A stretch of 63,996 bases of DNA, counting the filler, from a bacterium (GTDB taxonomy: Bacteria > UBA9089 > CG2-30-40-21 > SBAY01), in NCBI GenBank assembly GCA_040757115.1. It is 6 parts of 6 records of this genome, joined end to end, with 100 filler letters (N's around TTAATTAATTAA, not from the genome) between each part and the next. Parts side by side here need not be neighbours in the genome. Positions count along the whole stretch, not along the records: positions 45,662 to 52,713 come from JBFLYA010000193.1; 5 more parts are not named here. One strand, given 5' to 3'. The position numbers and the translations under genes were made by a program. Within the stretch, counting starts at the first letter, position 1; every line of letters starts with the position of its first letter. A model generated the notes under the pieces. That model was not told where the DNA came from. It did not search any database and saw only the letters and a list, made by a program, of their open reading frames with translations. Positions 11,753 to 63,281 of this stretch are shown in pieces.

Positions 11753-11825
11753 TTTTTCTGAAAATCGGGACTCGGGACTCGGGGTTCGGGACTCGGGAAT
11801 AAAAGAATCTTCGAACCCAGAAATC

Positions 11826-12026
11826 GGTGGTGTCTTAATCTAGCATAAAGGTTGAAATAGTGTCCGAAAAGGAGATATGGGCATTATGGAGATAAGGAGA
11901 TAAATTCATTCTAAAATTTTGGAAAGGACAATGAATAATCTCCATCTCTCCCTTTATCTCCTTATCCCCTTTTTTTACACCAAATCTGTATAGATTTCAC
12001 TATTAGAGTTATTTTCAGACACCATC
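11826..12026. mobile_element. GGTGGTGTCT-ended MITE with nonamer (GGAGATA-N2) interior
   Basis: Same ends as the 8908 element but a different interior; inserted into a (GGGACTC)n inverted-repeat hairpin spanning 11765-12062. Confidence 0.75.
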
Positions 12027-12094
12027 CGAAATCCGAGTCCCGAACCCCGAGTTCCGAGTCCCTTTATTTTTGTCATCCTTTGTGAATCGCAGAG

Positions 12095-14167
12095 TTATGA
12101 GTGTTTCTCTTCTTTATGTTGTTGGATAATTTTTTCTGCAAGTTGATGCGGGATTTCTTCATAATAGGCGAATTCAGCGTGATAAATTGCCTTACCACGA
12201 GTAATCGAACGCAATGAGGTAGAGTATTTATACATTTCTGATTGAGGGACAAAGGCATTGACTACTTGAATTCTACCCAGCGGCTCTATTCCTTGAATTC
12301 TACCTCGTCGGCTATTCAAATCTCCAATAACATCACCCATATATTCTTCAGGCACCTTTGCTTCAACCTTCATAATTGGTTCAATAAGAACTGGATGTGC
12401 ATCCTGAAATGCCTCTTTAAAGGCAAACGACCCGGCTAAATTAAAGGCAATATCCGACGAATCTACTTCATGAAAACTACCATCATATAAGATAACCTTA
12501 ACCCAGAGAATAGGATAGCCCGCTAATATTCCTTTTACCATTGCCTCTTTTACGCCTTTTTCGATAGATGGAATATATTTAGCCGGGATAGCCCCGCCAA
12601 AGATTTTATCTTCAAATTCAAATGTGGTTTCGGAATTTTGAGGTAATGGTTCAATTTCTATCAATGCATGTCCGTATTGTCCTCGACCACCTGTTTGTCG
12701 TTTGTATTTTCCTTCACCTTTAGATTTGGATTTAATCGTTTCTCGATATGGCACTTTGGGCCTTTCAATATTTACCTCTGCCCCAAACTTTTTTTGTAAT
12801 TTGTGAAGCATTACATCTAAATGCAATTCACTCATTCCCGAAACAATAGTTTGACCTAACTCATGGTCATAGCGAATCTGAAAGGTTGGGTCTTCATCAT
12901 GAAGTCTTGATAAGGCAAGACTCATTTTCTCCTGGTCTTGTTTTGTTTTGGGATTAACCGCAACCTCAGCGGTTGATTCAGGAAAGATAATATTTGGGAA
13001 CTCAATATGGTCATTTGGCGAACATAATGTATTTCCAATAAAAGCACCTTTAAATTTGACCAAAGCCCCGATGTCACCACAACCAATCTCTGGAATATCA
13101 TTCCGATTTTTACCCATAATCTGACAAATTTGTGAAACTTTTTCCTTTTGATTCTTGTTTGGATTATAGATTTCATCACCACTATGGACTATGCCGGAAT
13201 AAACTCTAAAGAAAGTCAATTCACCAATATACGGGTCAGTAATAACCTTAAATACTAAACTACTAAATGGTGCAGTCAGAGAACATATTCTTTTTTTATC
13301 AGGGATAGTTCCAACAATCTCCCCTTGCTCAATTGGCGCAGGGAAAAGGTCTATTATCATATCTAATACCGCAGATACGCCAATATTGTTATAACTTGAA
13401 CCACAAACTACAGGAATAATCTTCCTTGATTTAACACCATTGGTTAAACCAGTTATAATTTCACTTTCATCCAGGGTCATATTTTCTAAGTATTTCTCAG
13501 TCAATTCATCTGATGTTTCGGCTATTGCCTCTAATAATTTTTCTCGAAACTGATTTACCTTATCCAATTCATCCTGGGGAATTTCTCCTTCTTCACTTTT
13601 TCCATCTTTGTAAGTATAAGATTTTAGTTTAATTAAATCAATTACCCCTCTGAAATTTGCTGATTGGCCTAAAGGTAATTGAATAGGAACGATATTAGAT
13701 TTTGAATCGAGGTGTTGTTTTGTTGTCTCTAATATTTTATAAAAATCAACATTTTCTTTATCCATTTTGTTGACAAAAATTATTCGCGGGAGGTTGTATT
13801 CATCTGCATATTTCCAGGCTATTTCAGTACCTACCTCTACACCCGATGTGGCATCTATCAAAACCAGACAGGCATCTGCTACTCTTAATGAGCGAATTAC
13901 CTCTCCAAGGAAATCAGTATAGCCTGGCGTGTCGATAATATTAATTTTATGATTTCTCCAATTCAGATAGGCTAAACTTGCATTGATAGATATTTTTCGT
14001 TCAATTTCGCTTGGGTCATAGTCAAATATAGTATTTCCATCATCTACTCGACCTAATCTATTAGTTACTTTAGTGTTAAAAAGTAAGGCTTCTGCAAAGG
14101 AAGTCTTTCCAGTGCCTCCATGTCCAACAATACCTACATTTCTGATATTTTGTGGTTGAAAACTCAT
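12095..14167 (-). CDS. fusA: Elongation factor G (EF-G2/fusA-like paralog)
   Basis: Full EF-G domain set. G1 is GHGGTGKT and G2 is RKISI (non-canonical), and the gene is not in an str operon. Confidence 0.85.
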   Translation of the reverse strand: MSFQPQNIRNVGIVGHGGTGKTSFAEALLFNTKVTNRLGRVDDGNTIFDYDPSEIERKISINASLAYLNWRNHKINIIDTPGYTDFLGEVIRSLRVADACLVLIDATSGVEVGTEIAWKYADEYNLPRIIFVNKMDKENVDFYKILETTKQHLDSKSNIVPIQLPLGQSANFRGVIDLIKLKSYTYKDGKSEEGEIPQDELDKVNQFREKLLEAIAETSDELTEKYLENMTLDESEIITGLTNGVKSRKIIPVVCGSSYNNIGVSAVLDMIIDLFPAPIEQGEIVGTIPDKKRICSLTAPFSSLVFKVITDPYIGELTFFRVYSGIVHSGDEIYNPNKNQKEKVSQICQIMGKNRNDIPEIGCGDIGALVKFKGAFIGNTLCSPNDHIEFPNIIFPESTAEVAVNPKTKQDQEKMSLALSRLHDEDPTFQIRYDHELGQTIVSGMSELHLDVMLHKLQKKFGAEVNIERPKVPYRETIKSKSKGEGKYKRQTGGRGQYGHALIEIEPLPQNSETTFEFEDKIFGGAIPAKYIPSIEKGVKEAMVKGILAGYPILWVKVILYDGSFHEVDSSDIAFNLAGSFAFKEAFQDAHPVLIEPIMKVEAKVPEEYMGDVIGDLNSRRGRIQGIEPLGRIQVVNAFVPQSEMYKYSTSLRSITRGKAIYHAEFAYYEEIPHQLAEKIIQQHKEEKHS

Positions 14168-39409: not shown

Positions 39410-42400
39410 TTATCTTATAACGGCAATCTTACCTGTTTTCTTCTCTTCCTCATTGTCTGTGATAATATAGATATAGACACCGCTTTCGAGAGGATGGCCA
39501 TAGTCATCTCTAACATCCCAGCACCAATATCCCTCAATATGCTCTACAAACCGTCTTAGACTTCCGGCGATGTCATAAATTCTTATCTTACAATCCATTG
39601 GCAATCCTTCAAAGATTATCTCTTTATCCCCGCGTTGTGGTTTAAACGGAACAGGATAAACTATGAAATTGCTTAGATTTGGTTGAACCGCATAACCCAT
39701 TAAAACATAAGTTCCCATCTTATAGATTTGTGCCTTTACCCGATTTCCAATTCGGTCAATTGTTGGTGTCGTATTTACCGGCTTCCACTGATTATTTTCA
39801 AGGATGTGTAGTCTGAGGCTCTTTTCTAAGATATTTGTGCCATCTACTATCTTATCCTGGTCATTATCATCAAAAGGAATAATCAGAAAAGTGGCATTCC
39901 CAAAGTCATAGTCGAGCAATTTTTTATCACCATCAATTATTTTAATCTCGCGGATTGAATTTCTTACACCATCCAATTTCGTATCCTGGTCATCGGCAAG
40001 ATTGGCATTTTTAATCTCCAGATTTTCAGGATTCGCATTAATCATTACATAATAATTCGTTCCATTCAAAGATTTTGGGTTAATAGTCAATATTGTATTC
40101 CCCTCAGCCGTTACCGTTCCGTAGTTATCGTCAATCAATGCGGCAAAGGTATTACTTGTCCCTCTGATGTTAGCAAAATTAGCGATAAGTTGAATATCAA
40201 GAGCCACAGTATTAATCGTTATTGTCCCCTGCCATAGCCCATCTACAAATCTACCATTAGCCGTAAGATTAATATTTTCTGGGACAGGACATAGACTAAT
40301 CTCATTATCAAAATCGACTAAATTATTATAAACATCTCTTGCCGTGATAGTCACAGGAAATGGTTTTCCGCCAACTTGATGTGGGATTACCTCAAAATTG
40401 AAATGGTCTAATTCACTCTCTGATAGAAAGATAGTCGAAGTGCCAATTATTGTTCCATTGGTAGCCTTTATGATTCCAGTTATTGGAGAAAGACCTGCCG
40501 TAAATGTTGTAGATGTTCCGATAACAGGATTTACCTGACCCAGAGATGTTGGGATAACCTCCCAATTACAGATTACATTTAAAATAGGATTATCGTAGTA
40601 GTCATACCCATTGACATAAAATTCGCAACTTGTGGTAATAGAGAGAGTTACAGTAGCAGGAGTAATAATTAAATGATGTAATTGACCTGGGATAATAGTA
40701 ATTGTCGCCATCCCAGTAATAGTCCCGGAGGTTACGGATACTGTTCCGATTAATGCCTTTGTGCCAGCAGTAAAAAGTGTCATCGAGCCTATTTGTGGGG
40801 TTAAACTCCCTATGAATTGTTCCACCTGCCATTTGTAACTCGAAATCTCCGTGAGATAATTATCAAACATATCATATCCTTTAGCCAAAAAGGAACAACT
40901 ATTTAAAATACTTACAGTTTGAGTTTGAGGAAAGATATTAATATGATGTAGTTCACCCGGGGTAATGGTGATAGAGGCAAAGGCACTCTTACCACTGGAT
41001 GTCGCCATTATCATTCCCTCGCAAACAACTATTCCAGCGGTAAATAGGGTTGATGAGCCAATAGCAGGCAAGATACTCCCACCAATAACAGACCAATTAT
41101 AACTTAGTTCTGGAATCAGGTTATGATACTTATCATACCCTTGTGCATAAAACATCAGACTTTCAGTTACTCTTATGGTAGCAAAACCTGGAGTTATCTG
41201 AATATAATCTACCGCACCAGGGATAATAGTAATTGTCGCCATCCCAGTAATAGTCCCGGAGGTTACGGATACTGTTCCGATTAATGCCTTTGTGCCAGCA
41301 GTAAAAAGTGTCCTCGAGCCTATTTGTGGGGTTAAACTCCCTATGAATTGTTCCACCTGCCATTTGTAACTCGAAATCTCCGTGAGATAATTATCAAACA
41401 TATCATATCCTTTAGCCAAAAAGGAACAGCTATTTAAAATNNNNNNNNNNNNNNNNNNNNNNNNNNNNNNNNNNNNNNNNNNNNNNNNNNNNNNNNNNNN
41501 NNNNNNNNNNNNNNNNNNNNNNNNNNNNNNNNNNNNNNNNTCGAGCCTATTTGTGGGGTTAAACTCCCTATGAATTGTTCCACCTGCCATTTGTAACTCG
41601 AAATCTCCGTGAGATAATTATCAAACATATCATATCCTTTAGCCAAAAAGGAACAGCTATTTAAAATACTTACAGTTTGAGTTTGAGGAAAGATATTAAT
41701 ATGATGTAGTTCACCCGGGGTAATGGTAATAGAGGCAAAGGCACTCTTACCACTGGATGTCGCCATTATCATTCCCTCGCAAACAACTATTCCAGCGGTA
41801 AATAGGGTTGATGAGCCAATAGCAGGCAAGATACTCCCCCCAATAACAGACCAATTATAACTTAGTTCTGGAATCAGGTTATGATACTTATCATAGCCTT
41901 GTGCATAAAACATCAGACTTTCAGTTACTCTCAGGGTAGCAAAACCTGGAGTTATCTGAATATAATCTACCGCACCTGGGATAATAGTAATTGTCGCCAT
42001 CCCAGTAATAGTCCCGGAGGTTACGGATACTGTTCCGATTAATGCCTTTGTGCCAGCAGTAAAAAGCGTCATCGAGCCTATTTGTGGGGTTAAACTCCCT
42101 ATGAATTGTTCCACCTGCCATTTGTAACTCGAAATCTCCGTGAGATAATTATTAAACATATCATATCCTTTAGCCAAAAAGGAACAACTATTTAAAATAC
42201 TTACAGTTTGAGTTTGAGGAAAGATATTAATGTGATGTAGTTCACCCGGGGTAATGGTAATAGAGGCAAAGGCACTCTTACCACTGGATGTCGCCATTAT
42301 CATTCCCTCGCAAACAATTATTCCAGCGGTAAATAGGGTTGATGAGCCAATAGCAGGCAAGATACTCCCCCCAATAACAGACCAATTATAAGTTAGTTCT

Positions 42401-44646
42401 GGGATCAGGTTATGATACTTATCATAGCCTTGTGCATAAAACATCAGACTTTCAGTTACTCTTATGGTAGCAAAACCTGGAGTTATCTGAATATAATCTA
42501 CCGGACCAGGAATTACCTTGATTATTGCTGTTGCGGTTAATGTTCCAATCCAGGCAGAGATAGTGCCCATCCCTGGAGTTATTCCTGCCGTAAATAAAGT
42601 TACAGAGCCTATTTGAGAGCTAATATGACCAATATTATCTATCGCCCAATTAAAAGTTAAGCCATGAATGGGGTTATGATGTTGGTCATAACCACAAGCG
42701 GTGAATTCTTTTATTTTAGTAACCTCTAAAGTAACAGTAGCAGGATTAATTTTAATGTAATCTAAGACAGGAGAGATTATAGTTGTTATAGTCGTAGAAC
42801 TACCAACTATATTTGGATTAGTTTGTGATATTGCGGTTAAGGTAAGTGCATCCAGAGTACCTATTTTTGCCGTAGGAGGTATGGTAATCTGCACCTTTAT
42901 GGTCGCAGAAGCACCGGCATTTAGAAATATCGAACTAATGAGGTTATTGGCTATATCAAAAATTTGTGTCGTCCAGGAGTTAGAAGATGAAGCCAAAAGG
43001 TTAAAAGTATCGGCAACGAGTTCATTATTAGATATATTAAAGTCATAACTTAAAGTAGAGTCTGGAATAGTTTCTTTTCCCGCAGGGGCTAAAACAACTA
43101 CGCCACCGGGACTAATTATGCTTAATTGGTCGTTTGAATAAGGGGGAGGTTGCGTATTTACTTGAGTTTGTGTTGCACAAGAATTTGAAGAGCGAACTTC
43201 AAATAAATAAGTTCCATCTACAAGTGCGGCTGGAGTAAAATAGAATCCTTCCTCTGCCTCATCAAAATTTCCATCTGAGGATTGACAATCTATCCAGCTT
43301 CCACCATTTATCCTGTATTGAACATCAGTGATTAGATTTATTGTAATGTCACTTCCAGTCCCATAAGGATTATTATTCGGATAAGGATTGACTTTTACCG
43401 TCCCATTGTAAGTCGGTGTATTATCCGTAGTTGGGTCTGGGACATAAGATTGGAGTTGAGTTATTGGAAAGGTATCGACAATATCCAGAATATCATCATT
43501 ATCCGTATCTCGCCAGCCTATTTGTTGGCGGGTATAGGTACATACTGCCCCAATTGAATATGGAAATATCTGTCCTCGCATGATACAATCGTCATCTATT
43601 ATGCCATTAACTTCAAAGTTACCATTGATTATATTTAGATAGCCACTGTGGTCATCTGCTGAAGACCCGGAGCTACTATATTCATCTAAGGCGTAAAATA
43701 TATGCCCTATCTCATGGGCAGTGACGGCATCCATATTTTCTATTCCATAATTATCATTTTTATAAGTCATTACCACTAAAGGACCTCCAAGATAGGCATA
43801 GGCAAAATACTTTTTATCGGCAAACATACCATCGTCATCATTACTGGAATCAACGACATAGATAGTGAATGCCCAGTTCGTCTGATATATCTCTCTTAGA
43901 TGATTATTATAATCCCTAACCTTCGTTAAATACTTTGTATAAGAATTAGGATGAACGGTATCAATTGTCTGTGTAATCCATAGATCTTCATCTTTTTGAG
44001 TTAAGTTAATAGGTTCGTAGCTCGTAGGGACTTTTTTATGCAGTTCGTAAGTAAAACTCAAGTAGGCATCAGGTTCTTTATTTACCCACCAATCACAGGC
44101 AGACATTATCTCATTCACGACTTTAGTCTCTTCTGATATCTCCCAATTTTCCGTCCCGCCATTACTTTCTGGTAAGATTATGCCAACGGCAATCTTGCCA
44201 ATCATATACGCAGAAGTGTCAGAAAATGAGGCACCATAAGGAGGGGCTTTAGTTATAGGGCTTTCTTCTGGTTCCCAGATAAGGCAATCATCTCTAATTG
44301 GTTCTGGTTCTGGTAGTTTAAGAGGCAAGATTATCGGCGGTGGTTCAAATCTTAAATTCCAGACCTTAACAGCAAAAATAGCGGTTTCCCCTAAATTTTC
44401 TACTGCTGAAAGTGGAATTATTCCATTATAGATATTCACATCTTTTATATTTGTTGGAATATCCCCAATCAAGATATGGGGTGGAAAGATATGAACTATC
44501 CTGCCGCCTTGTGATTCAATGAGTTTGATGACATTTCTCATTGAATTAAGGTCAGTAGATTGAGACACCGCTAAACTATATGTTCCTGCATCTGTTTCAG
44601 ACAGAAATAAAAAGATTGATAAGATAAGAAAAGATAAATATTTCAT
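39410..44646 (-). CDS. Large secreted Zn-metalloprotease with Ig-like repeats and a T9SS/FlgD-like C-terminal domain (split by a gap)
   Basis: Signal peptide from MKYLSF, 'HEIGH...A.DEY' motif, ~88-aa Ig-like repeats, C-terminus 'VYPVPF...IRIYDIAG.L...W...G..L.SGVYIY...GKIAVIR'. Confidence 0.8.
40689..42510. repeat. 531-bp near-identical intragenic tandem repeats
   Basis: Matching offsets 40689/41220 and 41978/42509; a 100-N gap lies inside the array. Confidence 0.9.
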
Positions 44647-44786
44647 AATTCCAGGTAAGGCGGAAAAAGTAACATTTGTCAAAGGAAGAATAACAAAAAA
44701 TTGGATAAAAGTCAAGGGAATTTTTGAGATTTCTCGCAAAGGACGCTAAGAAAAGTCCCCTGGCGACCTTTGCGTCTTGCCGAGAG

Positions 44787-45015
44787 GTAACTATTCACCA
44801 TTCACAATTCACCATTCACAATTTCTTCCCTAAATTTCCTTAATAATGGTGAATGGTGAATTGTCAATTGTGAATTGTGAATTATCACTCTTCACGGTGT
44901 CAAGCAAACCTGGCCCAAGAGTTCGATGCACCGCTATAGCGCATCCAATGACTCTATTCGATAATTCATCAAATTTCACTTCGTGCTCTCCGTACCCTTC
45001 GTGCTGAATAGTTAC
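44787..45015. mobile_element. IS66-type MITE with (TTCACAA)n / (TTGTGAA)n interior
   Basis: Ends GTAACTATTCA / TGAATAGTTAC; perfect TSD GCCGAGAG. Confidence 0.85.
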
Positions 45016-45045
45016 GCCGAGAGAAAATTTCTATTTAGTTTCATA

Positions 45046-45352
45046 GTAACTATTTAGCCACTGATTAACACGGATTAGCAGGGATAAATACAGAGGACAG
45101 AGGACAGAGGGCAGAGGGCAGAGGGCAGAAGGCAGAGGGCAGAGGACAGAGGGCAGAAGGCAGAGGACAGAGGCGGGTTGTCCCCCGCTGGCGGGGGTTA
45201 GGGGGTGGAAATTTCCTCCACTGGCAGAGAATCAAGAAGGATAGAAGATAAAAGTCAGAAGGCGAAAAACCCTTCAGCCTTCAGCCTAATTACCGACACG
45301 GATTACGAATTTTCAGTGTTTCATCTGTGTCCCTCTGTGGCTGAATAGTTAC
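45046..45352. mobile_element. IS66-type MITE with a (GCAGAGG)n heptamer run
   Basis: Ends GTAACTATTTAGCCAC / GTGGCTGAATAGTTAC. Confidence 0.75.
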
Positions 45353-45361
45353 CATTTTTTT

Positions 45362-45795
45362 GTAAGCGTTCAGGTGGTGTAACAAAAGGAGATGTGGAGA
45401 TTAAGGAGATAGGGAGATATTATTAAAAAATTGGAATTAGTAGAAACTAATAGGAAATTTATGGAAATTTGTTGTTTTCCACAATCAATTTCTACCTATT
45501 TCTATAAATTTCAATCTATTTCTATTATCTTATCTCCATATCACTCTTATCTCCTTATCCCNNNNNNNNNNNNNNNNNNNNNNNNNNNNNNNNNNNNNNN
45601 NNNNNTTAATTAATTAANNNNNNNNNNNNNNNNNNNNNNNNNNNNNNNNNNNNNNNNNNNNAGAAATTGATTGTGGGAAACAACAAATTTCCATAAATTT
45701 CTATTAGTTTCTACTAATTTCAATTTTTTTATAATAATATCTCCCTATCTCCTTAATCTCCACATCTCCTTTTGTTACACCACCTGAACGCTTAC
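45362..45795. mobile_element. Two opposite partial copies of the ~236-bp IS66-type MITE joined by a gap
   Basis: The same GTAAGCGTTCAGGTGG end occurs at both extremities. Confidence 0.75.
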
Positions 45796-46103
45796 CATTT
45801 GGGAAACCATCCTCAAAACTTCACTCCCTGAATTTTTCCTAACCCTTACTACAGAAGTATAGGCAGGTCTCTCAAGCCTTCATTCTTCTGCAATTTCTGC
45901 CCACTTTAGTCTGAGGTCTGATGTCTATAGTCTACTGTCTGAATCACAGAGATACATTGCAAATGACGATTTTGGACACTCTTATCCTCTGGAAGGCACA
46001 GGCTTCCAGCCTGTGTGATACAGGTAAGATGCCTGTGCCAGCATAACTCAGGCAATATCAACAAGTTCGGGAGTATTTTCAGATGAAAGACTTTAAATGA
46101 TAT

Positions 46104-46991
46104 TTATTCAGTTTTATCACTATCCTTGTTTAGAATAGATGGTGGTCTGTAGAGATTAAGAAGGGTATTGAGGAAAGAGGTAATCCTCTCAATAGCATCG
46201 TCTATCTGATGGATGGTTTCTTGAACCACTTCATTCTCCTTAGGAAAGGTCATCTTGAGGTAGTAAATCCCTGCCTTTACTACAGTCAAGGGGTTTTTTA
46301 TCTCATGGGCTGATTCAGAGGCAAGATGGGCGGCAAGAGCCATCTTCTCCTTTTCCATAAGCTCTTTCTCTTTCCTCATTATCTCCTTTTCCTGGTCTTT
46401 TATTTTATCTATAAAATATCCACTTATTACAGCTATCCCCAAAAAGAAGATACATCTACCAATTATAATCGAAAGAACATAGCCTCCATCCTTATAGAGA
46501 GTAATCCCTATTTTCCCTACCGGGATTGGAGGTAAAATCATAAAGTATTCAAGGGATATCAAAAGTGAGAAAAGAAGGCTGGATAAAGCAGCAATAATGA
46601 TAGCCCCTCTTTGCGAGAGAAGAAAAGAGGCACCAATGATAACAATAGTGTAATTGAGTGGGCAAATAGCCGCGGCTAAGCCACCCTGAAGATGCACCGA
46701 ATAGGTTATTGCCATAAGGTCTGCAGTTAGTGAGGAAAAGGAAAGAAGAAAAAGGCATCTTTTACTCTCTTTGCAGACTTGCTTGCTTAAAAAGAAAAGA
46801 AAGACAAGATTTAGCAATAAGATAATTGTGGTTATATAAAGGATGGGGTAATTTAAGGGGATGGTTTGGGTAGATGCCCTTAACAAAGCAAGAGCAAGAG
46901 CAAGACTATATAGAATAACCCGGATATAGATTCCATATCTGTTCCAACCAATTAATCTTTCCCTTTGTATCTCTTCAATATCTATACTCAT
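46104..46991 (-). CDS. Membrane sensor with HisKA domain but no HATPase domain
   Basis: About 6 TMs and the H-box 'AHEIKNPL'; the protein stops about 55 aa later. Start corrected to MSIDIEE. Confidence 0.7.
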   Translation of the reverse strand: MSIDIEEIQRERLIGWNRYGIYIRVILYSLALALALLRASTQTIPLNYPILYITTIILLLNLVFLFFLSKQVCKESKRCLFLLSFSSLTADLMAITYSVHLQGGLAAAICPLNYTIVIIGASFLLSQRGAIIIAALSSLLFSLLISLEYFMILPPIPVGKIGITLYKDGGYVLSIIIGRCIFFLGIAVISGYFIDKIKDQEKEIMRKEKELMEKEKMALAAHLASESAHEIKNPLTVVKAGIYYLKMTFPKENEVVQETIHQIDDAIERITSFLNTLLNLYRPPSILNKDSDKTE

Positions 46992-46996
46992 ATCTT

Positions 46997-47488
46997 TCCC
47001 CTGAAAATAGGAAGTAGAGAGTAGAAAGTAGAAAGTAAAGAAAACATCACTCCTCACGCCTATCTCCTTACCTCCCACCTTCTATCTCCTACCTACTATT
47101 TTCATCCTCATTTGTGAACCCACGGTTCATGAGCGTTTCCCCTGAAAATAAGAAAGTAGAAAGTAGAGAGTAGAAAGTAAAGAAAACATCACTCCTCACG
47201 CCTATCTCCTTACCTCCCACCTTCTATCTCCTACCACTATTTTCATCCTCATTTGTGAACCAAAGGTTCATGAGAGCCTCTCCTGAAAATGTTCGTAAGT
47301 CATTGATTTGCAAGAATTTATGAATTTTCGACTAAAAACTTTTTTTCACCACGAAGACACGAAGAATTAAACAACAAATCTTTTAATTTCCTTTAATTCT
47401 TTCTTCGTGAACTTCGTGGTCCCTTCGTGCTCTTCGTGGTTTATTTTCATCTCCCTTTGTGAGCCGCAGGTTCATGAGCGTTTCTCCT
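46997..47488 (-). repeat. ATTTTCA...TGAAAAT hairpin cassette array, locus 1
   Basis: Junction hairpins at 47098-47149, 47239-47290 and 47443-47488, half-site at 46997-47008; modules A, A, B in plus-strand order. Confidence 0.85.
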
Positions 47489-47778
47489 TTCGATATCTGA
47501 CTTTTAACCATATAGGTCTCAGTGTAAAGTTAGATTTTATAGTAAGTATTAACCAAAAGTTCACATTAGTATTGTTGATAGTTGATGGTTGATAGTCTAT
47601 GAAACTATTAACTATAAACTATCAACCATCAACCCTGTTGCTATATCTGTTCTATGAGGAATTTTCGTTAATAACTATTATATACCCATAATTTCAAGCG
47701 TGACAAAGCACTGGTCTACTTCCTCGCTTTCTCACCTGCTCACTTTCTCATTTGCATAATCTCCTACACACTAAAAAG

Positions 47779-49059
47779 TTACTTACCTTTATTACACAGA
47801 CCCACAGCCAATTTGTTTGCATTGTTTATAACCAGGATTTTAGCCGCTGGGTCTTTTTCTAACCAGTTGTCTATAATTCTCTGTGGGTCATCAATGGGGA
47901 GTGTCCCAATTTCTTGCAGGTCTTGATGGTTATACTCAGAATAAACAAAGACTTTACTCACCCTTTGAAGGTAGTTCTTGAATCTAAATGCCTTGTAAAG
48001 ACCAAAGTCGGCATCTTTTTCTTTAATCTTACTGGCAATGTTCTCATAGTTTTGTTTTAAAATAGGTAAAAGTTTTGGGTCATCATGTATTCCACCTTGA
48101 ATGTTTGCGAGCCAGAGAACCTCTGTTTCCCTGTTCACAACCTGTTTGGTCAACTCTAATGACCTTTGAGCAACATAAAATGTTTTATCTTCATCCTTGC
48201 CCGGACTTACGATAAGATATTTGGTTGGATTTGTTGTAAAACTCATAGATTTATCAATAATTTTAATTCCTTCACAAGTAACTTCCTTTACTTCTCCTGC
48301 CTTTGCCCAGATTATCTCTTCATTTCCGACAAAGGCTAAGGCAAATACATATCTGTTCTTGATGATTAATTCCATTCCTTCTAACATATCTTCGGCGATA
48401 GGATTTTGTCTTTTTTGAGGCAATGGGTGCCAGGGATGTCTTCCATAGATAGAATCCTCTTCGACAATCAAGGCACAATGATTTTGACGGATAGTTTCAA
48501 AAGAGCAGATACCGGGTAAAAAGTTTTTAACTGGATTGCTATATCCTCCAAAATAATGGGGTTTCATACCAGAGACGACAATAAACATATCGCAGGACAT
48601 CGCTTTTTTATTTACAAATACCTCTGTTTTTCGCCAGGTAGTGCCAATATATTCAAATTCATCATTATTTGTGGATTCATTTATGGCTATATCGAAATTT
48701 AAGGAATATGAATTAACGATACCTCTAATAAATTCACAAAGTTCAAGGTTATGTAAAGGTTTATGGGTGCCAGTGGCAATGAGAACCTGAATAAAATGGG
48801 CTTTTTTTAATCTTTCACATAAAGGTTTGAGAATCTGTTCTCTGGGTTGTTTTCGGGTGCTATCGTCCAGGATGATACAAACTCTTTTCTCAGATACAAT
48901 ATCTTCCAATTTTGGTGTTGCGGCTTTTAATGCCCGTTCAAAAGTTTCAAAAGAGGCTTTTTCGCCGCTTATTTTCAGGCTAAAAAAATTAGCTAAATTT
49001 GTATCCGAAATAAATAATCCCATTTCTTTTTCGCCATAATCTAAATTAACTTTCATCAT
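47779..49059 (-). CDS. LarA (lactate racemase)-superfamily protein
   Basis: 'IILDDSTR', 'IATGTH' and 'PHYFGGYS..VK.FLPG' motifs. Confidence 0.8.
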   Translation of the reverse strand: MMKVNLDYGEKEMGLFISDTNLANFFSLKISGEKASFETFERALKAATPKLEDIVSEKRVCIILDDSTRKQPREQILKPLCERLKKAHFIQVLIATGTHKPLHNLELCEFIRGIVNSYSLNFDIAINESTNNDEFEYIGTTWRKTEVFVNKKAMSCDMFIVVSGMKPHYFGGYSNPVKNFLPGICSFETIRQNHCALIVEEDSIYGRHPWHPLPQKRQNPIAEDMLEGMELIIKNRYVFALAFVGNEEIIWAKAGEVKEVTCEGIKIIDKSMSFTTNPTKYLIVSPGKDEDKTFYVAQRSLELTKQVVNRETEVLWLANIQGGIHDDPKLLPILKQNYENIASKIKEKDADFGLYKAFRFKNYLQRVSKVFVYSEYNHQDLQEIGTLPIDDPQRIIDNWLEKDPAAKILVINNANKLAVGLCNKGK

Positions 49060-49064
49060 TAAAA

Positions 49065-49160
49065 ATTATAGCATATAAAATGGATATTTAGCAAGAATTT
49101 TTTGACCCATTACACCCGTGGACTTTTTCCACTTGACAAATTCTAATTTTTTGATATAAT
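49065..49160. promoter_or_regulatory. Divergent sigma70 promoters (larA-like gene / dxr)
   Basis: Minus strand TTGCTA-18-TATAAT (49094-49065); plus strand TTGACA-16-TATAAT (49133-49160). Confidence 0.65.
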
Positions 49161-49169
49161 AGTGGTGGT

Positions 49170-50306
49170 GTGAAAAAAATTGCTATTTTAGGTTCGACGG
49201 GTTCTATTGGGATAAGTGCTTTATGGGTAATAGATAAATTCAAGCAATATTTTGAAGTCGTGGGGTTAGCCGCTAATAAAAATGTTGATTTATTAGAAAA
49301 GGAAGTCCGAGAATTTAATCCTAAAATAGTATGCCTATCAGATGAAGATGGGGCAAATAAGTTAGTTCAAAGATTAAAAAACCATCCCTGTAAAATAGTT
49401 AGTGGACAAATGGGATTGATTGAAATTGCTTGTCTAAAAGAGGCAGATTTGGTCATCTGTGCGATTGTAGGTTCAGCAGGTTTAATCCCTTTAATAGAGG
49501 CCATTAAAGCCAAAAAGCAAATTTGCCTGGCAAACAAAGAAAGCCTGGTTATGGCGGGTAAGATAGTAATGGAGATTGCTCATAAAAATGGAGTTAAAAT
49601 CTTACCAGTGGATAGTGAACATAACGCTATATTTCAATGTTTAGAGGGGAAACTGACTAATACGATTAAAAGACTAATTTTGACAGGTTCTGGTGGTCCT
49701 TTTAGAGAAAGAGCGCATCTGGAAAATATTACTCCAGAGGAAACTCTTAAACATCCTACCTGGCAAATGGGGAAAAAAATCACTGTAGATTCGGCTACCC
49801 TGATGAATAAGGGACTTGAAGTTATAGAGGCACATTACTTATTTGGTGTTCCTATGTTGAATATCAAGGTAGTTATTCATCCGCAATCTATAATTCATTC
49901 TCTGGTAGAGTTTGTAGATGGTTCGATTTTAGGGCAAATGTCAATTACAGATATGAAAATTCCAATTGCTTATGCCCTTTCATATCCAGAAAGACTAAAA
50001 GAGGTATTACCTTCTTTAAATTTAACTCAAATTAAATCACTTACTTTTGAAGAGCCTGATTTTGATAGATTCCCTTGTTTATCTTATGGCTATGAGGCTG
50101 GGGAAAGAGGTGGAACTCTACCTGCAGTGCTTAATGGGGCAAATGAGGTTGCGGTCCATAGATTTTTAAATAAAGAAATAATGTTTATGGACATTCCTGA
50201 TATTATCAAAAAGGTGATGACTAAACATCAAGTTATTGAGAATCCCACCATAGATGAAATTTTATCCGCAGATGCGTGGGCAAGAAAAGAAGCAAGTAGC
50301 GTGTAA
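49170..50306 (+). CDS. dxr: 1-deoxy-D-xylulose-5-phosphate reductoisomerase
   Basis: 'LGSTGSIG', 'LANKESLV', 'PVDSEH' and 'HPTW.MG.KIT.DSATLMNKGLE' motifs. Confidence 0.95.
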   Translation: MKKIAILGSTGSIGISALWVIDKFKQYFEVVGLAANKNVDLLEKEVREFNPKIVCLSDEDGANKLVQRLKNHPCKIVSGQMGLIEIACLKEADLVICAIVGSAGLIPLIEAIKAKKQICLANKESLVMAGKIVMEIAHKNGVKILPVDSEHNAIFQCLEGKLTNTIKRLILTGSGGPFRERAHLENITPEETLKHPTWQMGKKITVDSATLMNKGLEVIEAHYLFGVPMLNIKVVIHPQSIIHSLVEFVDGSILGQMSITDMKIPIAYALSYPERLKEVLPSLNLTQIKSLTFEEPDFDRFPCLSYGYEAGERGGTLPAVLNGANEVAVHRFLNKEIMFMDIPDIIKKVMTKHQVIENPTIDEILSADAWARKEASSV

Positions 50307-50414
50307 AAAGAGAAGAGTTACAAATCACCAATGGAATTAAAAGCAAGTAATTGGTCAGTGGTAACGAATTACCATTCACCAGTTACCATTTACCAACGAA
50401 AGGAGAGATAAATA

Positions 50415-51716
50415 ATGAGTATAATAATTATTACAGCAGTTGCCGCTCTATTCGTATTCGGGATGGCAATTTTCTTTCATGAATTAGGTCATTTTCTAGC
50501 CGCAAAAAGAGAAGGAATAAAAGTAGAACGTTTCTCTATTGGATTTCCACCAAAATTATTTGCATTTAAACGAGGAGAGACAGAATATCGTATCGGAGCT
50601 ATTCCTGGAGGGGGGTATATTAAGATGGCGGGTGAAAATCCTGAAGAGGAATTAAAAGGCGAACCCTGGGAATTTCGCTCAGCGTCAATTAAAACACGAA
50701 TGAAGATTGTCCTTGCCGGTCCTTTATTGAATTTTGTGCTCGGATTCGTGCTCTTTTCCCTCATTGCCATACTGGGCATCCCAACCTATTCAAATATTGT
50801 CGGTAAAGTAGTAAAGGACTCACCAGCACAGAAAGCCGGAATATTAGAAGGAGATAAAATCATCAAAGTAAATAATACTTTAACTAATAACTGGCATGAA
50901 CTATCAAAAGTCATCCTTGAGTCGTCAGGTATGATAGAATTAACTATCTCCCGAAATGACAAAATAATAAAGGAAAAGGTAAAAATAACTAAAGATATAG
51001 AGCTGGGTATTTCTCCTTATGTTTCAACTCAAATCAAAAATGTGATTATAGGGTCGCCGGCATATAAATCTGGATTAAAGGAAGGGGATATCATTACATC
51101 TATTAATAACCAAAAGGTTTCACAATGGGAGGAAATGACACAGATTATTCGGAAAAGTCCTGGTAAAAAGTTAGCACTTAGTGTTCAGAGAGGGGAAAAA
51201 CAAATGGAGATTAAAATAATCCCAGCCGCTAAACCAGATTATGACCCGGAGAAGAAAAAGGAAATAAAAGTTGGTTCAATTGGTATCACCTCCTGCCACC
51301 AGCAATATCGGGTTAATCCTTTAGTCGCTTTATGGCAAGGATTACTTCAAACATTAGCGACTATCCAGCTTATTTTTGTTATCATGGGGCAACTCATAAT
51401 CGGTGGTCTTTCTCCTAAATTACTTGCTGGACCTATCGGTATTGTTCAAATGAGTGGTGAACAGGCACAATTAGGATTTACTGCCTTATTGAGTTTCCTT
51501 GGAATGTTAAGTGTTAATCTGGGTGTAATTAACCTTCTGCCTTTGCCAGTCTTAGACGGGGGGCATGTCATATTTTTAACCATAGAAAAGATACGCGGGA
51601 AAGCAATGTCAACTAAAACCCAGGAAGTGATTCAAACGATTGGGATTACGATTATTATCGCTTTAATAATATTTGTCAGTCAAAATGATATCAGAAGATG
51701 GATAGGATTACAATGA
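50415..51716 (+). CDS. rseP: RIP metalloprotease RseP
   Basis: HELGH motif, two PDZ domains, 'NLLP.PVLDGG'. Confidence 0.95.
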   Translation: MSIIIITAVAALFVFGMAIFFHELGHFLAAKREGIKVERFSIGFPPKLFAFKRGETEYRIGAIPGGGYIKMAGENPEEELKGEPWEFRSASIKTRMKIVLAGPLLNFVLGFVLFSLIAILGIPTYSNIVGKVVKDSPAQKAGILEGDKIIKVNNTLTNNWHELSKVILESSGMIELTISRNDKIIKEKVKITKDIELGISPYVSTQIKNVIIGSPAYKSGLKEGDIITSINNQKVSQWEEMTQIIRKSPGKKLALSVQRGEKQMEIKIIPAAKPDYDPEKKKEIKVGSIGITSCHQQYRVNPLVALWQGLLQTLATIQLIFVIMGQLIIGGLSPKLLAGPIGIVQMSGEQAQLGFTALLSFLGMLSVNLGVINLLPLPVLDGGHVIFLTIEKIRGKAMSTKTQEVIQTIGITIIIALIIFVSQNDIRRWIGLQ

Positions 51717-51744
51717 GACCAATAAAATCAGCACTAAAATTTAT

Positions 51745-51937
51745 CTAACCGTTCACCGCAGAGACGCAGAGAAAAAATTAAAATCTATTGGTAACTATTC
51801 AGCCACAGATGGACACAGATAAAACACTGATTTTATTTTTTTATCCGTGTTAATCAGTGGCTGAATAGTTACTTTATTTCTATGTCTTCTCTGCGAACTC
51901 TTGCGTCTCTGCGGTAAAGGACTACCTGAACGGTTAC
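51745..51937. mobile_element. Nested IS66-type MITEs
   Basis: Outer GxxExxY-arm element; inner perfect-ended palindrome at 51791-51872. Confidence 0.8.
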
Positions 51938-51961
51938 GGGCAATAAAGGAGGGGCGAGATT

Positions 51962-52162
51962 GTGACCAAAGGAATACACCGCAGACAAAAACCTATCTGG
52001 AAAAGTGTTCGTAAACCAATAGCACCACCAACTAAACCTCATAGCACGAAAAAAGGCAAAAAAGGCTATGATAGAAAGAAATGGAAATATGAGGATACAT
52101 CCGATATTTCTGAGGATATCCCCCCTCTTTTAGCCACGAAGATACTAAGACACAAAGTATAA
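51962..52162 (+). CDS. Small basic hypothetical protein
   Basis: SD AAGGAGG; 'RKPIAPPTKPHSTKKGKKGYDRKK' motif. Confidence 0.5.
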   Translation: MTKGIHRRQKPIWKSVRKPIAPPTKPHSTKKGKKGYDRKKWKYEDTSDISEDIPPLLATKILRHKV

Positions 52163-52168
52163 GTTTTA

Positions 52169-52326
52169 GTAAGCGTTCAGCCATCAGGTATCAGCAATCA
52201 GTTAACATCCAGGAAATCAGGATAGTAACAAATCCTACAATTTTGCGTAAAGGGTGTCTATGTGTCTGGTAGTCTATGTAACCCAGACACTTAGACACTC
52301 AGATACCAGACTACCTGAACGGTTAC
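52169..52326. mobile_element. IS66-type MITE with a distinct interior
   Basis: Ends GTAAGCGTTCAG / CTGAACGGTTAC; perfect TSD AAGTTTTA. Confidence 0.85.
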
Positions 52327-52589
52327 AAGTTTTAAACCCTACTCATTCCTCGCTACTGTTATACGGGTTAAAGATGGTATTAAGAATAAACCTTCTAAAA
52401 AATCGGGGTTCGAGGTTCGGATTTAGGGATTAGGGGATTCTTTTATTCCCGAACCCCCAATCCCGAATCCCTTTTTTCGTATCTTAGTAACCTGATGGTT
52501 AAATATAGCACTTATTATTCAAATATGTCCTTTGGCTTGCCTTCCCCATTTTTTATGATAAAATGGGAAAAAATAGAATATGAAAATTC

Positions 52590-52713
52590 GTAACCGTTCA
52601 GGCTATATATCAAAAGTGTAAGAAAGGGGATAAGGAGATAAGAGTGATATGGAGATAAGATAATAGAAATAGATTGAAATTTATAGAAATAGGTAGAAAT
52701 TGATTGTGGAAAA
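52590..52713. mobile_element. Partial ~236-bp IS66-type MITE ending at a gap
   Basis: Near-identical to the left part of 25695. Confidence 0.75.
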
Positions 52714-52813
52714 NNNNNNNNNNNNNNNNNNNNNNNNNNNNNNNNNNNNNNNNNNNNTTAATTAATTAANNNNNNNNNNNNNNNNNNNNNNNNNNNNNNN
52801 NNNNNNNNNNNNN

Positions 52814-53192: not shown

Positions 53193-53364
53193 GTAACCGT
53201 TCAGGCTATATATCAAAAGTGTAAGAAAGGGGATAAGGAGATAAGAGTGATATGGAGATAAGATAATAGAAATAGATTGAAATTTATAGAAATAGGTAGA
53301 AATTGATTGTGGAAAACAACAAATTTCCATAAATTTCTATTAGTTACACCACCTGAACGCTTAC
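53193..53364. mobile_element. Internally deleted ~236-bp IS66-type MITE
   Basis: Both ends intact; about 65 bp missing relative to 25695. Confidence 0.85.
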
Positions 53365-56668: not shown

Positions 56669-56678
56669 AGAGGTAGTA

Positions 56679-60984: not shown

Positions 60985-60992
60985 CAGATAAT

Positions 60993-61607
60993 TCTCCTGA
61001 AAATGTCTATAAGTCATTGATTTGCAAGAACGTACAAATTTCGACTAAAAAGCTTTTTCCCCACCACGAAGACACGAAGAATTAAACAACAAATCTCTTA
61101 ATTTCCTTTAATTCTTTCTTCGTGAACTTCGTGGTTCCTTCGTGCTCTTCGTGGTTTATTTTCATCTCCCTTTGTGAGCCGCAGGTTCATGAGTGTTCTT
61201 CTGAAAATAGGAAGTAGAAAGTAGAGAGTAGAAAGTAGAAAGTAAAGAAAACATCACTCCTCACGCCTATCTCCTTACCTCCCACCTTCTATCTCCTACC
61301 CCTATTTTCATCCTCCTTTGTGTCCACCCTGTGGACATGTCCGTTTCTCCTGAAAATAGTTTTTAGCCACAGATAAACGCAGAAGGACACAGATTGATTT
61401 AGCCACTGAATACACGAAAACTCACTGATAAATTATTATAGAAGTTAAGAGGCTAAGAAGATAAGAAGTTAAGATTCTTAAAAGCAAATTAACCTCTCAT
61501 CTTCTCATCTTCTCAACTTCTTATCCTCTTATCCTTCAGTGTTTTCAGTGACTTCAGTGGCTATTTTCATTTCTCCTCTGCGAGTTGCTGAGTTATGACT
61601 GCTTCTG
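60993..61607 (-). repeat. ATTTTCA...TGAAAAT hairpin cassette array, locus 2
   Basis: Half-site at 60993-61004; junctions at 61158-61208, 61304-61357 and 61563-61607 (degenerate); modules B, A, C in plus-strand order. Confidence 0.85.
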
Positions 61608-61608
61608 C

Positions 61609-63235: not shown

Positions 63236-63281
63236 AATTTGCTTTTTTGAATGTTCCTGAGCCTGTCAGGAACAGGCTTTG

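What the first reader, a model, noticed from the sequence alone, without database searches (positions are those of the whole stretch)
46997..47488. Candidate new cassette system: non-coding modules arrayed between covarying ATTTTCA...TGAAAAT hairpins (locus 1)
Seen: 51-54 bp junctions of the form ATTTTCA-N9-GTG(stem)-3 nt loop-(stem)CAT-N11-12-TGAAAAT recur here and at 61.0-61.6 kb. The inner stem changes sequence while keeping its pairing (GTGAACC/GGTTCAT, GTGAGCC/GGTTCAT, GTGTCCAC/GTGGACAT). G.T pairs make the hairpin fold better on the + strand, which is antisense to the flanking genes. The junctions separate discrete modules: A (AGTAGAA heptamer arms), B (CCACGAAG arms plus an IHF site) and C. 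Order is A-A-B here and B-A-C at locus 2. Established: integron attC sites use an outer box, an asymmetric spacer, an inner box and strand-specific folding, but with RYYYAAC/GTTRRRY ends. Inference: these are attC-analogous single-strand recombination sites of a different recombinase that stacks and shuffles mini-cassettes. No recombinase is present in the window.
Basis: partly seen in the sequence, partly recalled or inferred. Interest (0 to 1): 0.88.

Follow-up and report, generated by a model that had tools for sequence, protein, structure and literature searches.

The report
Stacked mini-copies of an RNA-guided transposon
The repeated hairpin "junctions" are the joined ends of tiny, gene-less copies of an IS110-family RNA-guided jumping gene that pile up head to tail just in front of genes, so this is a new variant of a known kind of mobile DNA and not a new cassette system.

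Summary
The 51-54-nt junctions, the compensatory changes in their hairpin and the shuffled module order (A-A-B, B-A-C) are all confirmed.

Each junction is the right end of one small element abutting the left end (TGAAAAT) of the next. Units run from TGAAAAT through a variable hairpin to ATTTTCA, N6, TTTGTG-hairpin-CATG and GTTTCYCC. They sit 3' of a TTTCYCC target, with no duplication.

Thirteen 1.5-kb full-length copies in metagenome contigs share these ends. Each copy with its coding part on the contig (12 of 13) carries an IS110-family RNA-guided transposase gene. Each of the 13 has a 230-nt non-coding region with 9-nt patches that co-vary with the flank.

The nearest genome, G001, has such an end next to an array, and its patches read TTTCTCC-TG, the window lineage's target.

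The window's units are therefore non-autonomous derivatives (MITEs). Insertion regenerates the target, which explains the stacking.

The target is the complement of a ribosome-binding site (GGRGAAA), or of start codon plus AAA in other phyla. This explains why the arrays sit at gene starts.

The attC/single-strand reading is not supported. The closest precedent is ISPpu9/MITEPpu9. Earlier scan notes reported comparable hairpin-repeat arrays on other DNA, but none matched this sequence.

The parts
46995..47001 (+). Target at the left edge of array 1. It reads TTTCCCC, the complement of the GGGGAAA ribosome-binding site of the minus-strand kinase-like gene, whose ATG is at 46991-46989.
   Evidence: Left flanks of arrays in the G001/window lineage read TTCYCC almost without exception.
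47002..47142 (+). Unit 1: left end TGAAAAT, module A hairpin (AGTAGAA heptamer arms), ATTTTCA, hairpin GTGAACC/GGTTCAT, tail ending TTTCCCC.
   Evidence: junction 47098-47149, 71 bits.
47143..47283 (+). Unit 2: a second module A with its own right-end hairpin (loop AAA) and a tail ending CTCTCC.
   Evidence: 47239-47290, 66.5 bits. The orthologous G001 locus keeps this unit.
47284..47487 (+). Unit 3: module B (CCACGAAG arms), right-end hairpin GTGAGCC/GGTTCAT, tail GTTTCTCC. No TGAAAAT follows, so this is the end of the array.
   Evidence: 47449-47488, model positions 7-46. It is shared with G001 at 95% identity together with the right flank.
60998..61201 (+). Locus 2, unit 1 (module B). It lies directly after AATTCTCC, the complement of the GGAGAATT ribosome-binding site of the minus-strand epimerase-like gene.
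   Evidence: 61158-61208.
61202..61350 (+). Locus 2, unit 2 (module A) with the 8-bp hairpin GTGTCCAC/GTGGACAT.
   Evidence: 61304-61357.
61351..61608 (+). Locus 2, unit 3 (module C) with a decayed right end. The end abuts the stop codon (61609-61611) of the upstream minus-strand glycosyltransferase-like gene.
   Evidence: This right end was read by eye; the model did not score it at E <= 1.
11759..12109 (+). Third, decayed single unit. The module has TCGGGAC heptamer arms, interrupted by another small repeat (about 11847-11973). The left end lies 6 nt from the ATG of the gene ending at 11752. The right end supplies the stop codon of the gene 12095..14167.
   Evidence: I6, D12; 12077-12109, E 0.087.

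Best explanation
The arrays are head-to-tail stacks of miniature, gene-less derivatives (MITEs) of an insertion sequence of the IS110 family. In this family the long non-coding region lies downstream of the transposase gene, as in the IS1111 group.

Shown:
- A unit keeps only the element's ends. These are 7-8 nt at one end (TGAAAAT) and about 52 nt at the other (ATTTTCA, N6, TTTGTG-hairpin-CATG, N3, GTTTCYCC). A variable hairpin 'module' stands where the transposase gene and guide-RNA region would be.
- Full-length elements with the same ends encode an IS110-family RNA-guided DEDD transposase.
- Those elements also carry a conserved non-coding region with two variable patches. One patch equals the 7 nt left of the element plus its first 2-3 nt. 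The other equals the element's last 9-10 nt.
- Units lie 3' of TTTCYCC (window lineage) or TTTCAYN (other phyla), with no target duplication.

Inferred:
- The transposase and its RNA, supplied in trans, excise units as circles in which the two ends abut (the 'junction') and insert them at sites that pair with the guide.
- Each unit ends in the target sequence and starts with TG. Every insertion therefore recreates the 9-nt target at its left junction and at every internal junction. New units keep landing there and arrays grow, mostly at the gene-proximal side.
- Recombination between junctions can remove or reorder units.
- The target is the complement of GGRGAAA (a ribosome-binding site) or of RTGAAA (start codon plus AAA). 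This places arrays just upstream of start codons in one fixed orientation.
- The covarying hairpin is a cis element of the transposase-proximal end. Its role is unknown.
For: **Ends**
- Of the 65 left ends listed, nearly all read TTCYCC| or TTCAYN| directly before TGAAAAT. The 49 right ends listed stop at GTTTCA(Y)/GTTTCYCC with no TGAAAAT after them. There is no duplication.
- An empty site exists. mnmG in L092 is uninterrupted where L040 carries two units, after a TTTCGC/CTCATC-type site.

**Full-length copies**
- 13 copies on 10 contigs are 1.55-1.57 kb long and have the same left and right ends. They include tandem pairs joined by a normal junction (L180).
- The ORF of 405-422 aa matches PF01548 (108 bits) plus PF02371 (82 bits). 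It matches NF033542, 'IS110 family RNA-guided transposase', at 295 and 254 bits against a cut-off of 140. It matches IS621 transposase in PDB at E 3e-16.

**Guide and flank co-variation**
- Patch a equals the left flank plus the first nt of the left end at 9 of 9 positions in 12 of 13 copies, and at 8 of 9 in the other. Six variants occur: CACT, CACC, CATC, CAC+TCG, CCCC, CTCC.
- Patch b equals the last 9-10 nt in 7 of the 10 copies whose right end is on the contig. It matches 7 nt in 2 and 5 nt in 1.
- The non-coding region has a conserved fold: 41 pairs, 8 of them with compensatory changes in 9 sequences. The patches lie in variable stretches.

**The window lineage**
- G001 contig C572 carries an array (F-A-G) followed by TGAAAAT, this non-coding region (81% identical to L163's) and the last 13 codons of the transposase. 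Its patches read TTTCTCC-TG and GTTTCTCCTT.
- G003 and G004, which are rich in units, hold fragments 98-100% identical to the L180 transposase at contig ends, next to a right end.

**Modularity**
- At least 14 module families occur in many orders, and module A is found with 7 hairpin variants.
- Units range down to an 'empty' one (a 2-nt module, L083) and one with an 11-nt module (L097).
- One unit keeps only the guide region (L083).

**Turnover**
- At the orthologous locus G001 shares A-B and the right flank, but has a different gene-proximal unit.

**Precedent**
- For ISPpu9, circles containing tnp, tnp+ssr9 or ssr9 alone were detected, and ssr9 was registered as MITEPpu9. Tandem ssr9 copies occur in other strains (PMC12288879, passages).
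- A cargo flanked by IS ends can be moved by transposase plus seekRNA, without target duplication (PMC11187229, passages).
Against: - No full-length element lies in the window, and the window's own genome is not held.
- In G001 only the end of the element is in the bin. No transposase closer than 31% identity was found there, nor in G007, G008, G009 or G005. The guide region was not found in G007, G008, G009, G006 or G012, although G007 and G008 carry 20 and 8 junctions. MAG bins often lose repeats, so this is weak evidence either way.
- No circle, RNA or transposition was observed. No RNA run was listed, and the run contigs break inside the repeats.
- The classical IS1111 subterminal repeats (11-13 bp, with 7-bp and 3-bp extensions) are not present. 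Here a 7-8-bp repeat is terminal at one end and 45 nt inside at the other.
- The role of the covarying hairpin is unexplained. Many stem variants coexist in one genome.
- Patch b does not match the right end in L163.
- No sigma-70-like promoter was predicted at the junctions.
Confidence: 0.85

Rival explanations
1. The junction folds as one single-stranded, attC-like site (outer boxes ATTTTCA/TGAAAAT, inner hairpin) and is recombined by an integron-type tyrosine recombinase that captures and shuffles mini-cassettes.
For: The junction can fold as an outer 7-bp stem plus an inner hairpin. The unit boundary lies at the inner edge of the 3' outer arm, as in attC. The inner stem covaries. The small hairpin is somewhat more stable on one strand in 121 of 132 copies.
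Against: Arrays begin with a bare TGAAAAT and end without it, so the 'site' is two separate ends. The outer boxes equally close the module hairpin. There are hundreds of dispersed sites and no platform. Full-length elements with these ends carry a DEDD transposase and guide patches, not an integrase. The R-box consensus of attC is absent from the junction consensus.
Confidence: 0.03
2. Single-strand 'peel and paste' by an HUH enzyme (IS200/IS605 TnpA or a REP-associated RAYT). Insertion occurs 3' of a short target, guided by a subterminal hairpin.
For: There is no target duplication. Insertion is 3' of a fixed short sequence that the right end repeats. A hairpin lies 11-12 nt from the right end. 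Y1 transposase genes are present in 5 of 5 unit-rich genomes.
Against: No unit end lies within 1.5 kb of any of 12 Y1 loci. Y1 genes are equally common in relatives without the element (20 of 28 genomes; 6 of 6 in family f2, which has 0-1 junctions). They are only fragmentary in G007, which has 20 junctions. They are found in 6 of 14 control genomes. There is no conserved left-end hairpin. IS91-type Y2 was found in only 3 of 5 genomes.
Confidence: 0.04
3. The arrays arose mainly by local tandem duplication and unequal recombination between junctions, not by serial insertion. The transposase only seeded single copies.
For: A-A in locus 1 could be a duplication (82-96% identity between A copies, D10). 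Junctions are long enough for homologous exchange. Module A is linked to 7 hairpin variants, which suggests exchange.
Against: Most arrays join unrelated modules (E-A-K, F-A-G, L-M and others). Full-length elements also sit in tandem with units and with each other. Every junction is a 9 of 9 match to the guide, so insertion there is expected.
Confidence: 0.12
4. The units are mainly host regulatory RNA structures of 5' leaders (stability or translation control), conserved for that function rather than as selfish DNA.
For: 82% lie in the sense orientation of neighbouring genes (64 vs 14 on the left, 67 vs 15 on the right). They sit next to ribosome-binding sites. Modules keep G-U-rich hairpins on the mRNA-sense strand (57 vs 7 differ by more than 3 kcal/mol).
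Against: The same ends occur in many phyla with unrelated modules. Units sit inside coding regions of priA and mnmG. Distribution among relatives is patchy (5 of 60). Unit content at an orthologous locus varies. Orientation follows from the asymmetric target. A secondary effect on expression is not excluded.
Confidence: 0.05

Closest known systems
ISPpu9 and MITEPpu9 of Pseudomonas putida KT2440 (IS110 family; PMC12288879, abstract and discussion passages read)
   Same: A small non-coding element flanked by copies of the IS end boxes sits directly beside the IS or alone. Circles holding the transposase gene, the small module or both were detected ('modular transposition'). Tandem copies of the small module occur in other strains. 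Insertion is site-specific.
   Different: ISPpu9 lacks end repeats and targets REP sequences. It has one module type (an sRNA gene) in 8 copies. Here there are at least 14 hairpin module types in one sampled genome, 79-163 right ends in four of the five genomes counted (19 in the fifth), arrays of up to 4 units, targets at translation starts, and spread over several phyla. The paper's Supplementary Fig. S1 (tandem ssr9) could not be seen.
IS1111-group elements with seekRNA (ISEc11, ISPa11, ISKpn4, ISPst6; PMC11187229, passages read)
   Same: A DEDD transposase. A long non-coding region downstream of the gene carrying short matches to the target. No target duplication. A cargo flanked by IS ends can be moved with transposase and RNA in trans. 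Circle with abutted ends. ISEc11's short linear target, GTGAAAATACTG as given in the paper, resembles the motifs here.
   Different: The defining 11-13-bp subterminal repeats with 7-bp and 3-bp extensions are not seen. Here a 7-8-bp repeat is terminal on one side and 45 nt internal on the other, and a covarying hairpin lies between it and the end. No RNA or circle was observed here.
IS621 / bridge RNA recombinases (IS110 group; PDB 8wt6; Durrant et al. 2024 seen only in the reference list of PMC12288879)
   Same: The transposase is homologous (E 3e-16 over the C-terminal domain; NF033542). Target and donor are recognised by RNA.
   Different: In the IS110 group the non-coding region is upstream of the gene and there are no end repeats. 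Identity is low.
Integron attC sites and gene cassettes
   Same: Direct arrays of units separated by structured sites. The unit boundary is at one edge of the site. Stem pairing is conserved with variable sequence.
   Different: There is no integrase, attI, promoter platform or ORF cargo. The R-box consensus is absent. The sites are two abutted ends. There are hundreds of loci.
REP/BIME mosaics and in-frame palindromic elements (Rickettsia RPEs); the names are recalled, and the REP survey PMC3733652 was seen in a listing only
   Same: Small hairpin repeats that fill intergenic gaps. Some are tolerated in frame inside genes (priA, mnmG here).
   Different: There are no GTAG or CGTC tags. Orientation is direct, not alternating. 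An identified IS110-type parent exists.

Membership tests
IS110 family (RNA-guided DEDD transposase elements), autonomous form | A transposase with the DEDD_Tnp_IS110 and Transposase_20 domains. | tested here: met
   L180 ORFs match PF01548 at 108 and 104 bits, and PF02371 at 82 and 81 bits. NF033542 scores 295 and 254 bits against a cut-off of 140. No such gene with these ends lies in the window itself.
IS110 family (RNA-guided DEDD transposase elements), autonomous form | A long non-coding region holding short matches to the target and to the element ends (seekRNA / bridge RNA). | tested here: met
   A 230-nt region is conserved in 13 copies. Patch a equals flank plus left end at 9 of 9 positions in 12 of 13 copies. 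Patch b equals the right end (9-10 nt) in 7 of 10 copies. The fold is conserved. That an RNA is made was not testable.
IS110 family (RNA-guided DEDD transposase elements), autonomous form | Site-specific insertion without target duplication. | tested here: met
   See, and the empty site in L092 against the filled site in L040.
IS110 family (RNA-guided DEDD transposase elements), autonomous form | A circular intermediate with abutted ends. | not testable with these tools
   Only run contigs were available, and none spans an array. Tandem junctions have the sequence such a circle would have.
IS1111 group within that family | Subterminal inverted repeats of 11-13 bp with 7-bp (left) and 3-bp (right) extensions, as defined in PMC11187229. 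| tested here: not met
   Only a 7-8-bp repeat (TGAAAATG) is present. It is terminal at one end and 45 nt from the other. The non-coding region downstream of the gene does fit the group.
MITE (non-autonomous derivative) of that IS: the window's units | Short and non-coding, sharing both ends and the insertion site with an autonomous element, and present in many copies. | tested here: met
   Units are 60-270 nt. Their ends are identical in motif to those of the full-length copies. There are 163 right ends in G001.
   The junction consensus has no such boxes. The sites are dispersed. The modules are non-coding. The IntegronFinder attC model is not available here, so scoring with it was not possible.
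IS200/IS605 or REP-RAYT | A Y1 HUH gene flanked by, or co-occurring with, the repeats. | tested here: not met
   No end lies within 1.5 kb of 12 Y1 loci. Y1 presence does not track the element among 28 relatives.
Any Rfam family | A match at or near the gathering score. | tested here: not met
   In window 44000-63996 there were only 10 weak hits to eukaryotic miRNA/snoRNA models, 21-35 bits against cut-offs of 64-100. In L180 there was one weak gyrA hit.

The most novel reading that the evidence does not exclude
A clade of IS110-family RNA-guided elements has set its guide RNA to the universal signals of translation initiation: the ribosome-binding site GGRGAAA in this lineage, and RTGAAA in others. 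It ends in a copy of its own target, so every insertion regenerates the site. The result would be a self-extending 'stacker'. It builds arrays of arbitrary hairpin cargo in the leaders of hundreds of genes, and in frame inside some. It would have crossed at least seven labelled phyla of anoxic groundwater and sediment bacteria, and may reshape leader structure and expression genome-wide. The covarying hairpin would be a cis signal of this clade that has not been described.
Probability: 0.5. Interest if true: 0.6.

Novelty: new variant of a known kind. Interest (0 to 1): 0.5.

Why it matters
- It turns an apparently new 'cassette system' into a concrete, testable case of RNA-guided transposition in nature.
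- It shows what a bridge/seekRNA element does when its target is a short, ubiquitous motif that the element itself recreates. It forms arrays, spawns many miniature derivatives, and colonises translation-start regions across phyla.
- It suggests a small cis requirement (about 8 nt plus about 52 nt) and a conserved hairpin of unknown role. Both could be of interest to groups that engineer these recombinases.
- For genome annotation, it explains why assemblies of these uncultivated bacteria break at such sites. It also explains why some housekeeping genes carry odd in-frame inserts.

Tried and rejected
- **Own genome.** The whole genome of the window is not held. I worked with G001 and with loci from public collections.
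- **Rfam.** Nothing real was found.
- **HUH Y1 transposases.** They are present but not linked to the element.
- **PDDEXK_2 (Rpn/YhgA-like) transposase.** There is one in the window and 17 matches in G001, but none in G002-G005.
- **IS91-type Y2.** Found in 3 of 5 genomes.
- **Recurrent neighbouring ORFs.** Clustering over the first 100 loci gave only housekeeping genes or spurious frames through repeats.
- **L061.** An apparent 1.9-kb 'module' is just two arrays flanking a transketolase operon.
- **Other IS110-family genes of G001, G007 and G008** (C586, C212, C12, C271). None has a unit end nearby.
- **Viral contigs.** The two-unit pattern gave 0 matches. The right-end pattern gave 3 contigs, which I did not study.
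- **Sequencing runs.** No RNA holder was listed. The three DNA runs of one study are kept as contigs that break in the repeats, so neither array order nor circles could be checked.
- **Promoter scan of the array.** 0 sites.
- **Guide region in other genomes.** Not found in G007, G008, G009, G006 or G012.
- **Literature.** Six answered searches found no description of this motif or of arrays of IS110-family MITEs other than MITEPpu9. ISfinder could not be consulted, and supplements are closed.
- **Beggiatoaceae leads.** TAACTGA repeats (PMC4679880, listing only) and Thiomargarita MITEs (PMC4853749, passages) concern other repeats.

Full report
**1. What is there**

The window holds two arrays, both written here on the plus strand.
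- Locus 1 (47002-47487) has three units in the order A-A-B.
- Locus 2 (60998-61608) has three units in the order B-A-C.

A third, decayed single unit lies at 11759-12109.

All three sites lie directly upstream of the start codon of a minus-strand gene. At locus 1 and locus 2 they lie downstream of another minus-strand gene.

Rfam finds nothing real.

**2. More than chance, and a real hairpin**

The nearest held genome, G001 (4.7 Mb, 770 contigs), gave 56 matches to locus 1.

An exact two-unit pattern scanned over one genome per species found 64 stretches in 18 assemblies. Their labels are Nitrospirae, Syntrophales/Smithella, Deltaproteobacteria, Anaerolineae, Atribacterota, Sumerlaeota, Brocadiaceae and unclassified bacteria. 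A further 48 metagenome contigs matched.

The right-end motif occurs 163, 115, 79, 19 and 87 times in five genomes, and 0 times for the reversed control.

In an alignment of 58 distinct junctions:
- the inner helix is 95.6% paired;
- its four free pairs changed on both sides in 13, 30, 22 and 12 sequences;
- 0 of 500 shuffles reach the observed score;
- slid controls fall to 36-50% paired.

A proposed outward extension of the stem is weaker (78.6% paired, mostly G-U).

**3. The unit is not the junction**

Arrays begin with TGAAAAT directly after TTCYCC (G001/window lineage) or TTCAYN (other phyla). They end with ATTTTCA, N6, TTTGTG-hairpin-CATG, N3, GTTTCYCC or GTTTCA(Y), with no TGAAAAT after it. 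This rests on the 65 left ends and 49 right ends listed.

The left flank and the element's last bases are alike but not copies of each other, so there is no target duplication.

An empty site is visible. The mnmG gene of L092 is continuous where its orthologue in L040 carries two units after a TTTCGC/CTCATC-type site.

The junction is therefore the right end of one unit touching the left end of the next.

**4. Orientation and strand**

Of 103 arrays, the neighbouring long ORF lies on the opposite strand in 64 against 14 on the left, and in 67 against 15 on the right. The remainder had no clear ORF.

- The small hairpin is more stable on the plus strand in 121 of 132 distinct copies (mean -10.4 vs -7.7 kcal/mol).
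- The modules fold better on the gene-sense strand in 81 of 102. The difference exceeds 3 kcal/mol in 57, against 7 the other way.
- In the window, module A gives -49.6 against -21.4 kcal/mol.

**5. Modules are free cargo**

In a sample of 55 units from G001 and the window there are at least 14 module families. The sample is biased towards A, because the loci were found with A and B.

Array compositions include A-A-B, A-B-A, E-A-K, F-A-G, F-A-H and L-M. Module A occurs with seven different hairpin variants.

Modules range from 2 nt (L083) and 11 nt (L097) to more than 250 nt.

Units also sit inside genes, in frame and without stops: two in priA (L097) and two in mnmG (L040, about 75 codons).

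**6. The parent element**

In the metagenome loci a spacing of about 1.52 kb between a left end and the next right end recurs.

These intervals hold an ORF of 405-422 aa, on the strand opposite to the junction's written orientation.
- It carries the DEDD_Tnp_IS110 and Transposase_20 domains.
- NCBIfam calls it an 'IS110 family RNA-guided transposase' (295 and 254 bits, cut-off 140).
- Its C-terminal domain matches IS621 transposase in PDB (E 3e-16).

The element's ends are those of the units. TGAAAAT lies at the far side of a 230-nt non-coding region downstream of the gene. ATTTTCA, the hairpin and GTTTCACC lie just upstream of the gene.

Two full copies in L180 are joined by a normal junction.

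G003 and G004, which are rich in units, hold fragments 98-100% identical to this transposase at contig ends, beside a right end.

**7. Guide patches**

The non-coding region is conserved. It has 41 predicted pairs, 8 of them with compensatory changes in 9 sequences. Two short stretches vary.

Patch a, read on the junction's strand, is TTTC-NNN-TG.
- In 12 of 13 full-length copies it is identical at 9 of 9 positions to the 7 nt left of the element plus its first two or three bases.
- In the remaining copy it matches 8 of 9.
- Six variants occur: CACT, CACC, CATC, CAC with a TCG left end, CCCC and CTCC.
- The twelfth (L163) was read.

Patch b equals the last 9-10 nt of the element in 7 of the 10 copies whose right end is on the contig. 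It matches 7 nt in two and only 5 nt in L163.

This is the signature reported for seekRNA of IS1111/IS110 elements: short matches to the target in a non-coding region that is needed for circle formation and insertion (PMC11187229, passages).

**8. Link to the window's lineage**

G001 contig C572 carries an array F-A-G. It is followed by TGAAAAT, a region 81% identical to the L163 non-coding region, and the last 13 codons of the transposase. The contig then ends.

Its patches read TTTCTCC-TG and GTTTCTCCTT. That is the TTTCYCC target and right-end tail seen in the window's arrays.

L163, a full copy from a metagenome, has patch a reading TTTCCCC-TG and sits after TTTCCCC.

**9. Mechanism**

Shown: shared ends, transposase family, guide-flank identity, no duplication, variable order.

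Inferred: transposase and RNA act in trans on units, as shown experimentally for cargo flanked by IS ends (PMC11187229) and for the MITE-like ssr9 module of ISPpu9 (PMC12288879).

A unit ends in the target and begins with TG. The left junction and every internal junction are therefore again perfect targets, so arrays extend.

At the locus shared with G001, units A-B and the right flank are common (95% identity). The gene-proximal unit differs. This fits insertion at the left junction.

The target is the complement of GGRGAAA, or of RTGAAA. This explains both the position at translation starts and the fixed orientation.

**10. What remains open**

- No full element, RNA or circle was seen for the window's own organism.
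- No close transposase was found in the G001, G007, G008, G009 or G005 bins.
- Run contigs break in the repeats.
- The hairpin's role is unknown.
- The IS1111-type subterminal repeats are not met.
- The distribution is patchy: 4 of 5 genomes of the family, 1 of 6 in the sister family, and 0 of 49 others sampled. Together with occurrence in distant phyla, this points to horizontal spread, but the route is not known.

**11. Comparison and verdict**

The element works like, and its parent is a member of, the IS110 family. The units are MITEs of it. The closest described case is ISPpu9/MITEPpu9.

The features I found in none of the papers searched are the self-regenerating target at translation signals, the large radiation of hairpin cargo, and the arrays.

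The attC reading is rejected.

Noticed in passing
window 47538-47680: A different hairpin element made of GTTGATA-type heptamer repeats, just right of array 1. It is absent from one contig of run X2, which joins 47537 to 47681 (143 nt skipped, ends TA..TA, 130 nt on the shorter side). This looks like a presence/absence polymorphism of another small mobile repeat.
   Followed up: partly
window 26215-27153: A gene for a PD-(D/E)XK 'transposase' (PDDEXK_2, Rpn/YhgA-like; 168 bits) with a 12-nt tandem repeat at its 3' end (26909-27037). There are 17 matches in G001 and none in four other unit-rich genomes.
   Followed up: partly
window 30923-31022, 38307-38406, 41441-41540, 45562-45661, 52714-52813, 59782-59881: Runs of N (mostly 44 + 12 letters + 44), each embedded in the same families of dispersed repeats (repeat finder D1, D4, D5, D7). 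The intergenic space of this window is largely a mosaic of small repeats.
   Followed up: no
L097 about 3390-3590 (priA) and L040 6968-7191 (mnmG): Two-unit arrays lie inside housekeeping genes. They are read through in frame without stops and always use the same frame of the right end (peptides of the type GET.M....T..DEN).
   Followed up: partly
L083 3089-3394: One unit has a 252-nt module that is the guide-RNA region without the transposase gene. It is followed by an 'empty' unit (TGAAAAT-AG-ATTTTCA). This may be a guide-only helper element.
   Followed up: no
window 12095-12109 and 61606-61611: The right end of a unit supplies (12095) or abuts (61609) the stop codon of the upstream gene, so insertions have remodelled the 3' ends of genes.
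   Followed up: no
window 45080-45177, 9139-9240, 63524-63597: Other heptamer tandem repeats and heptamer-armed hairpins without the TGAAAAT/ATTTTCA frame. The cargo modules may derive from such independent repeats.
   Followed up: no
L138, L139, L140 (viral contigs): Three contigs classed as viral carry a single right-end motif. I did not examine whether they are true phage or carry a full element.
   Followed up: no
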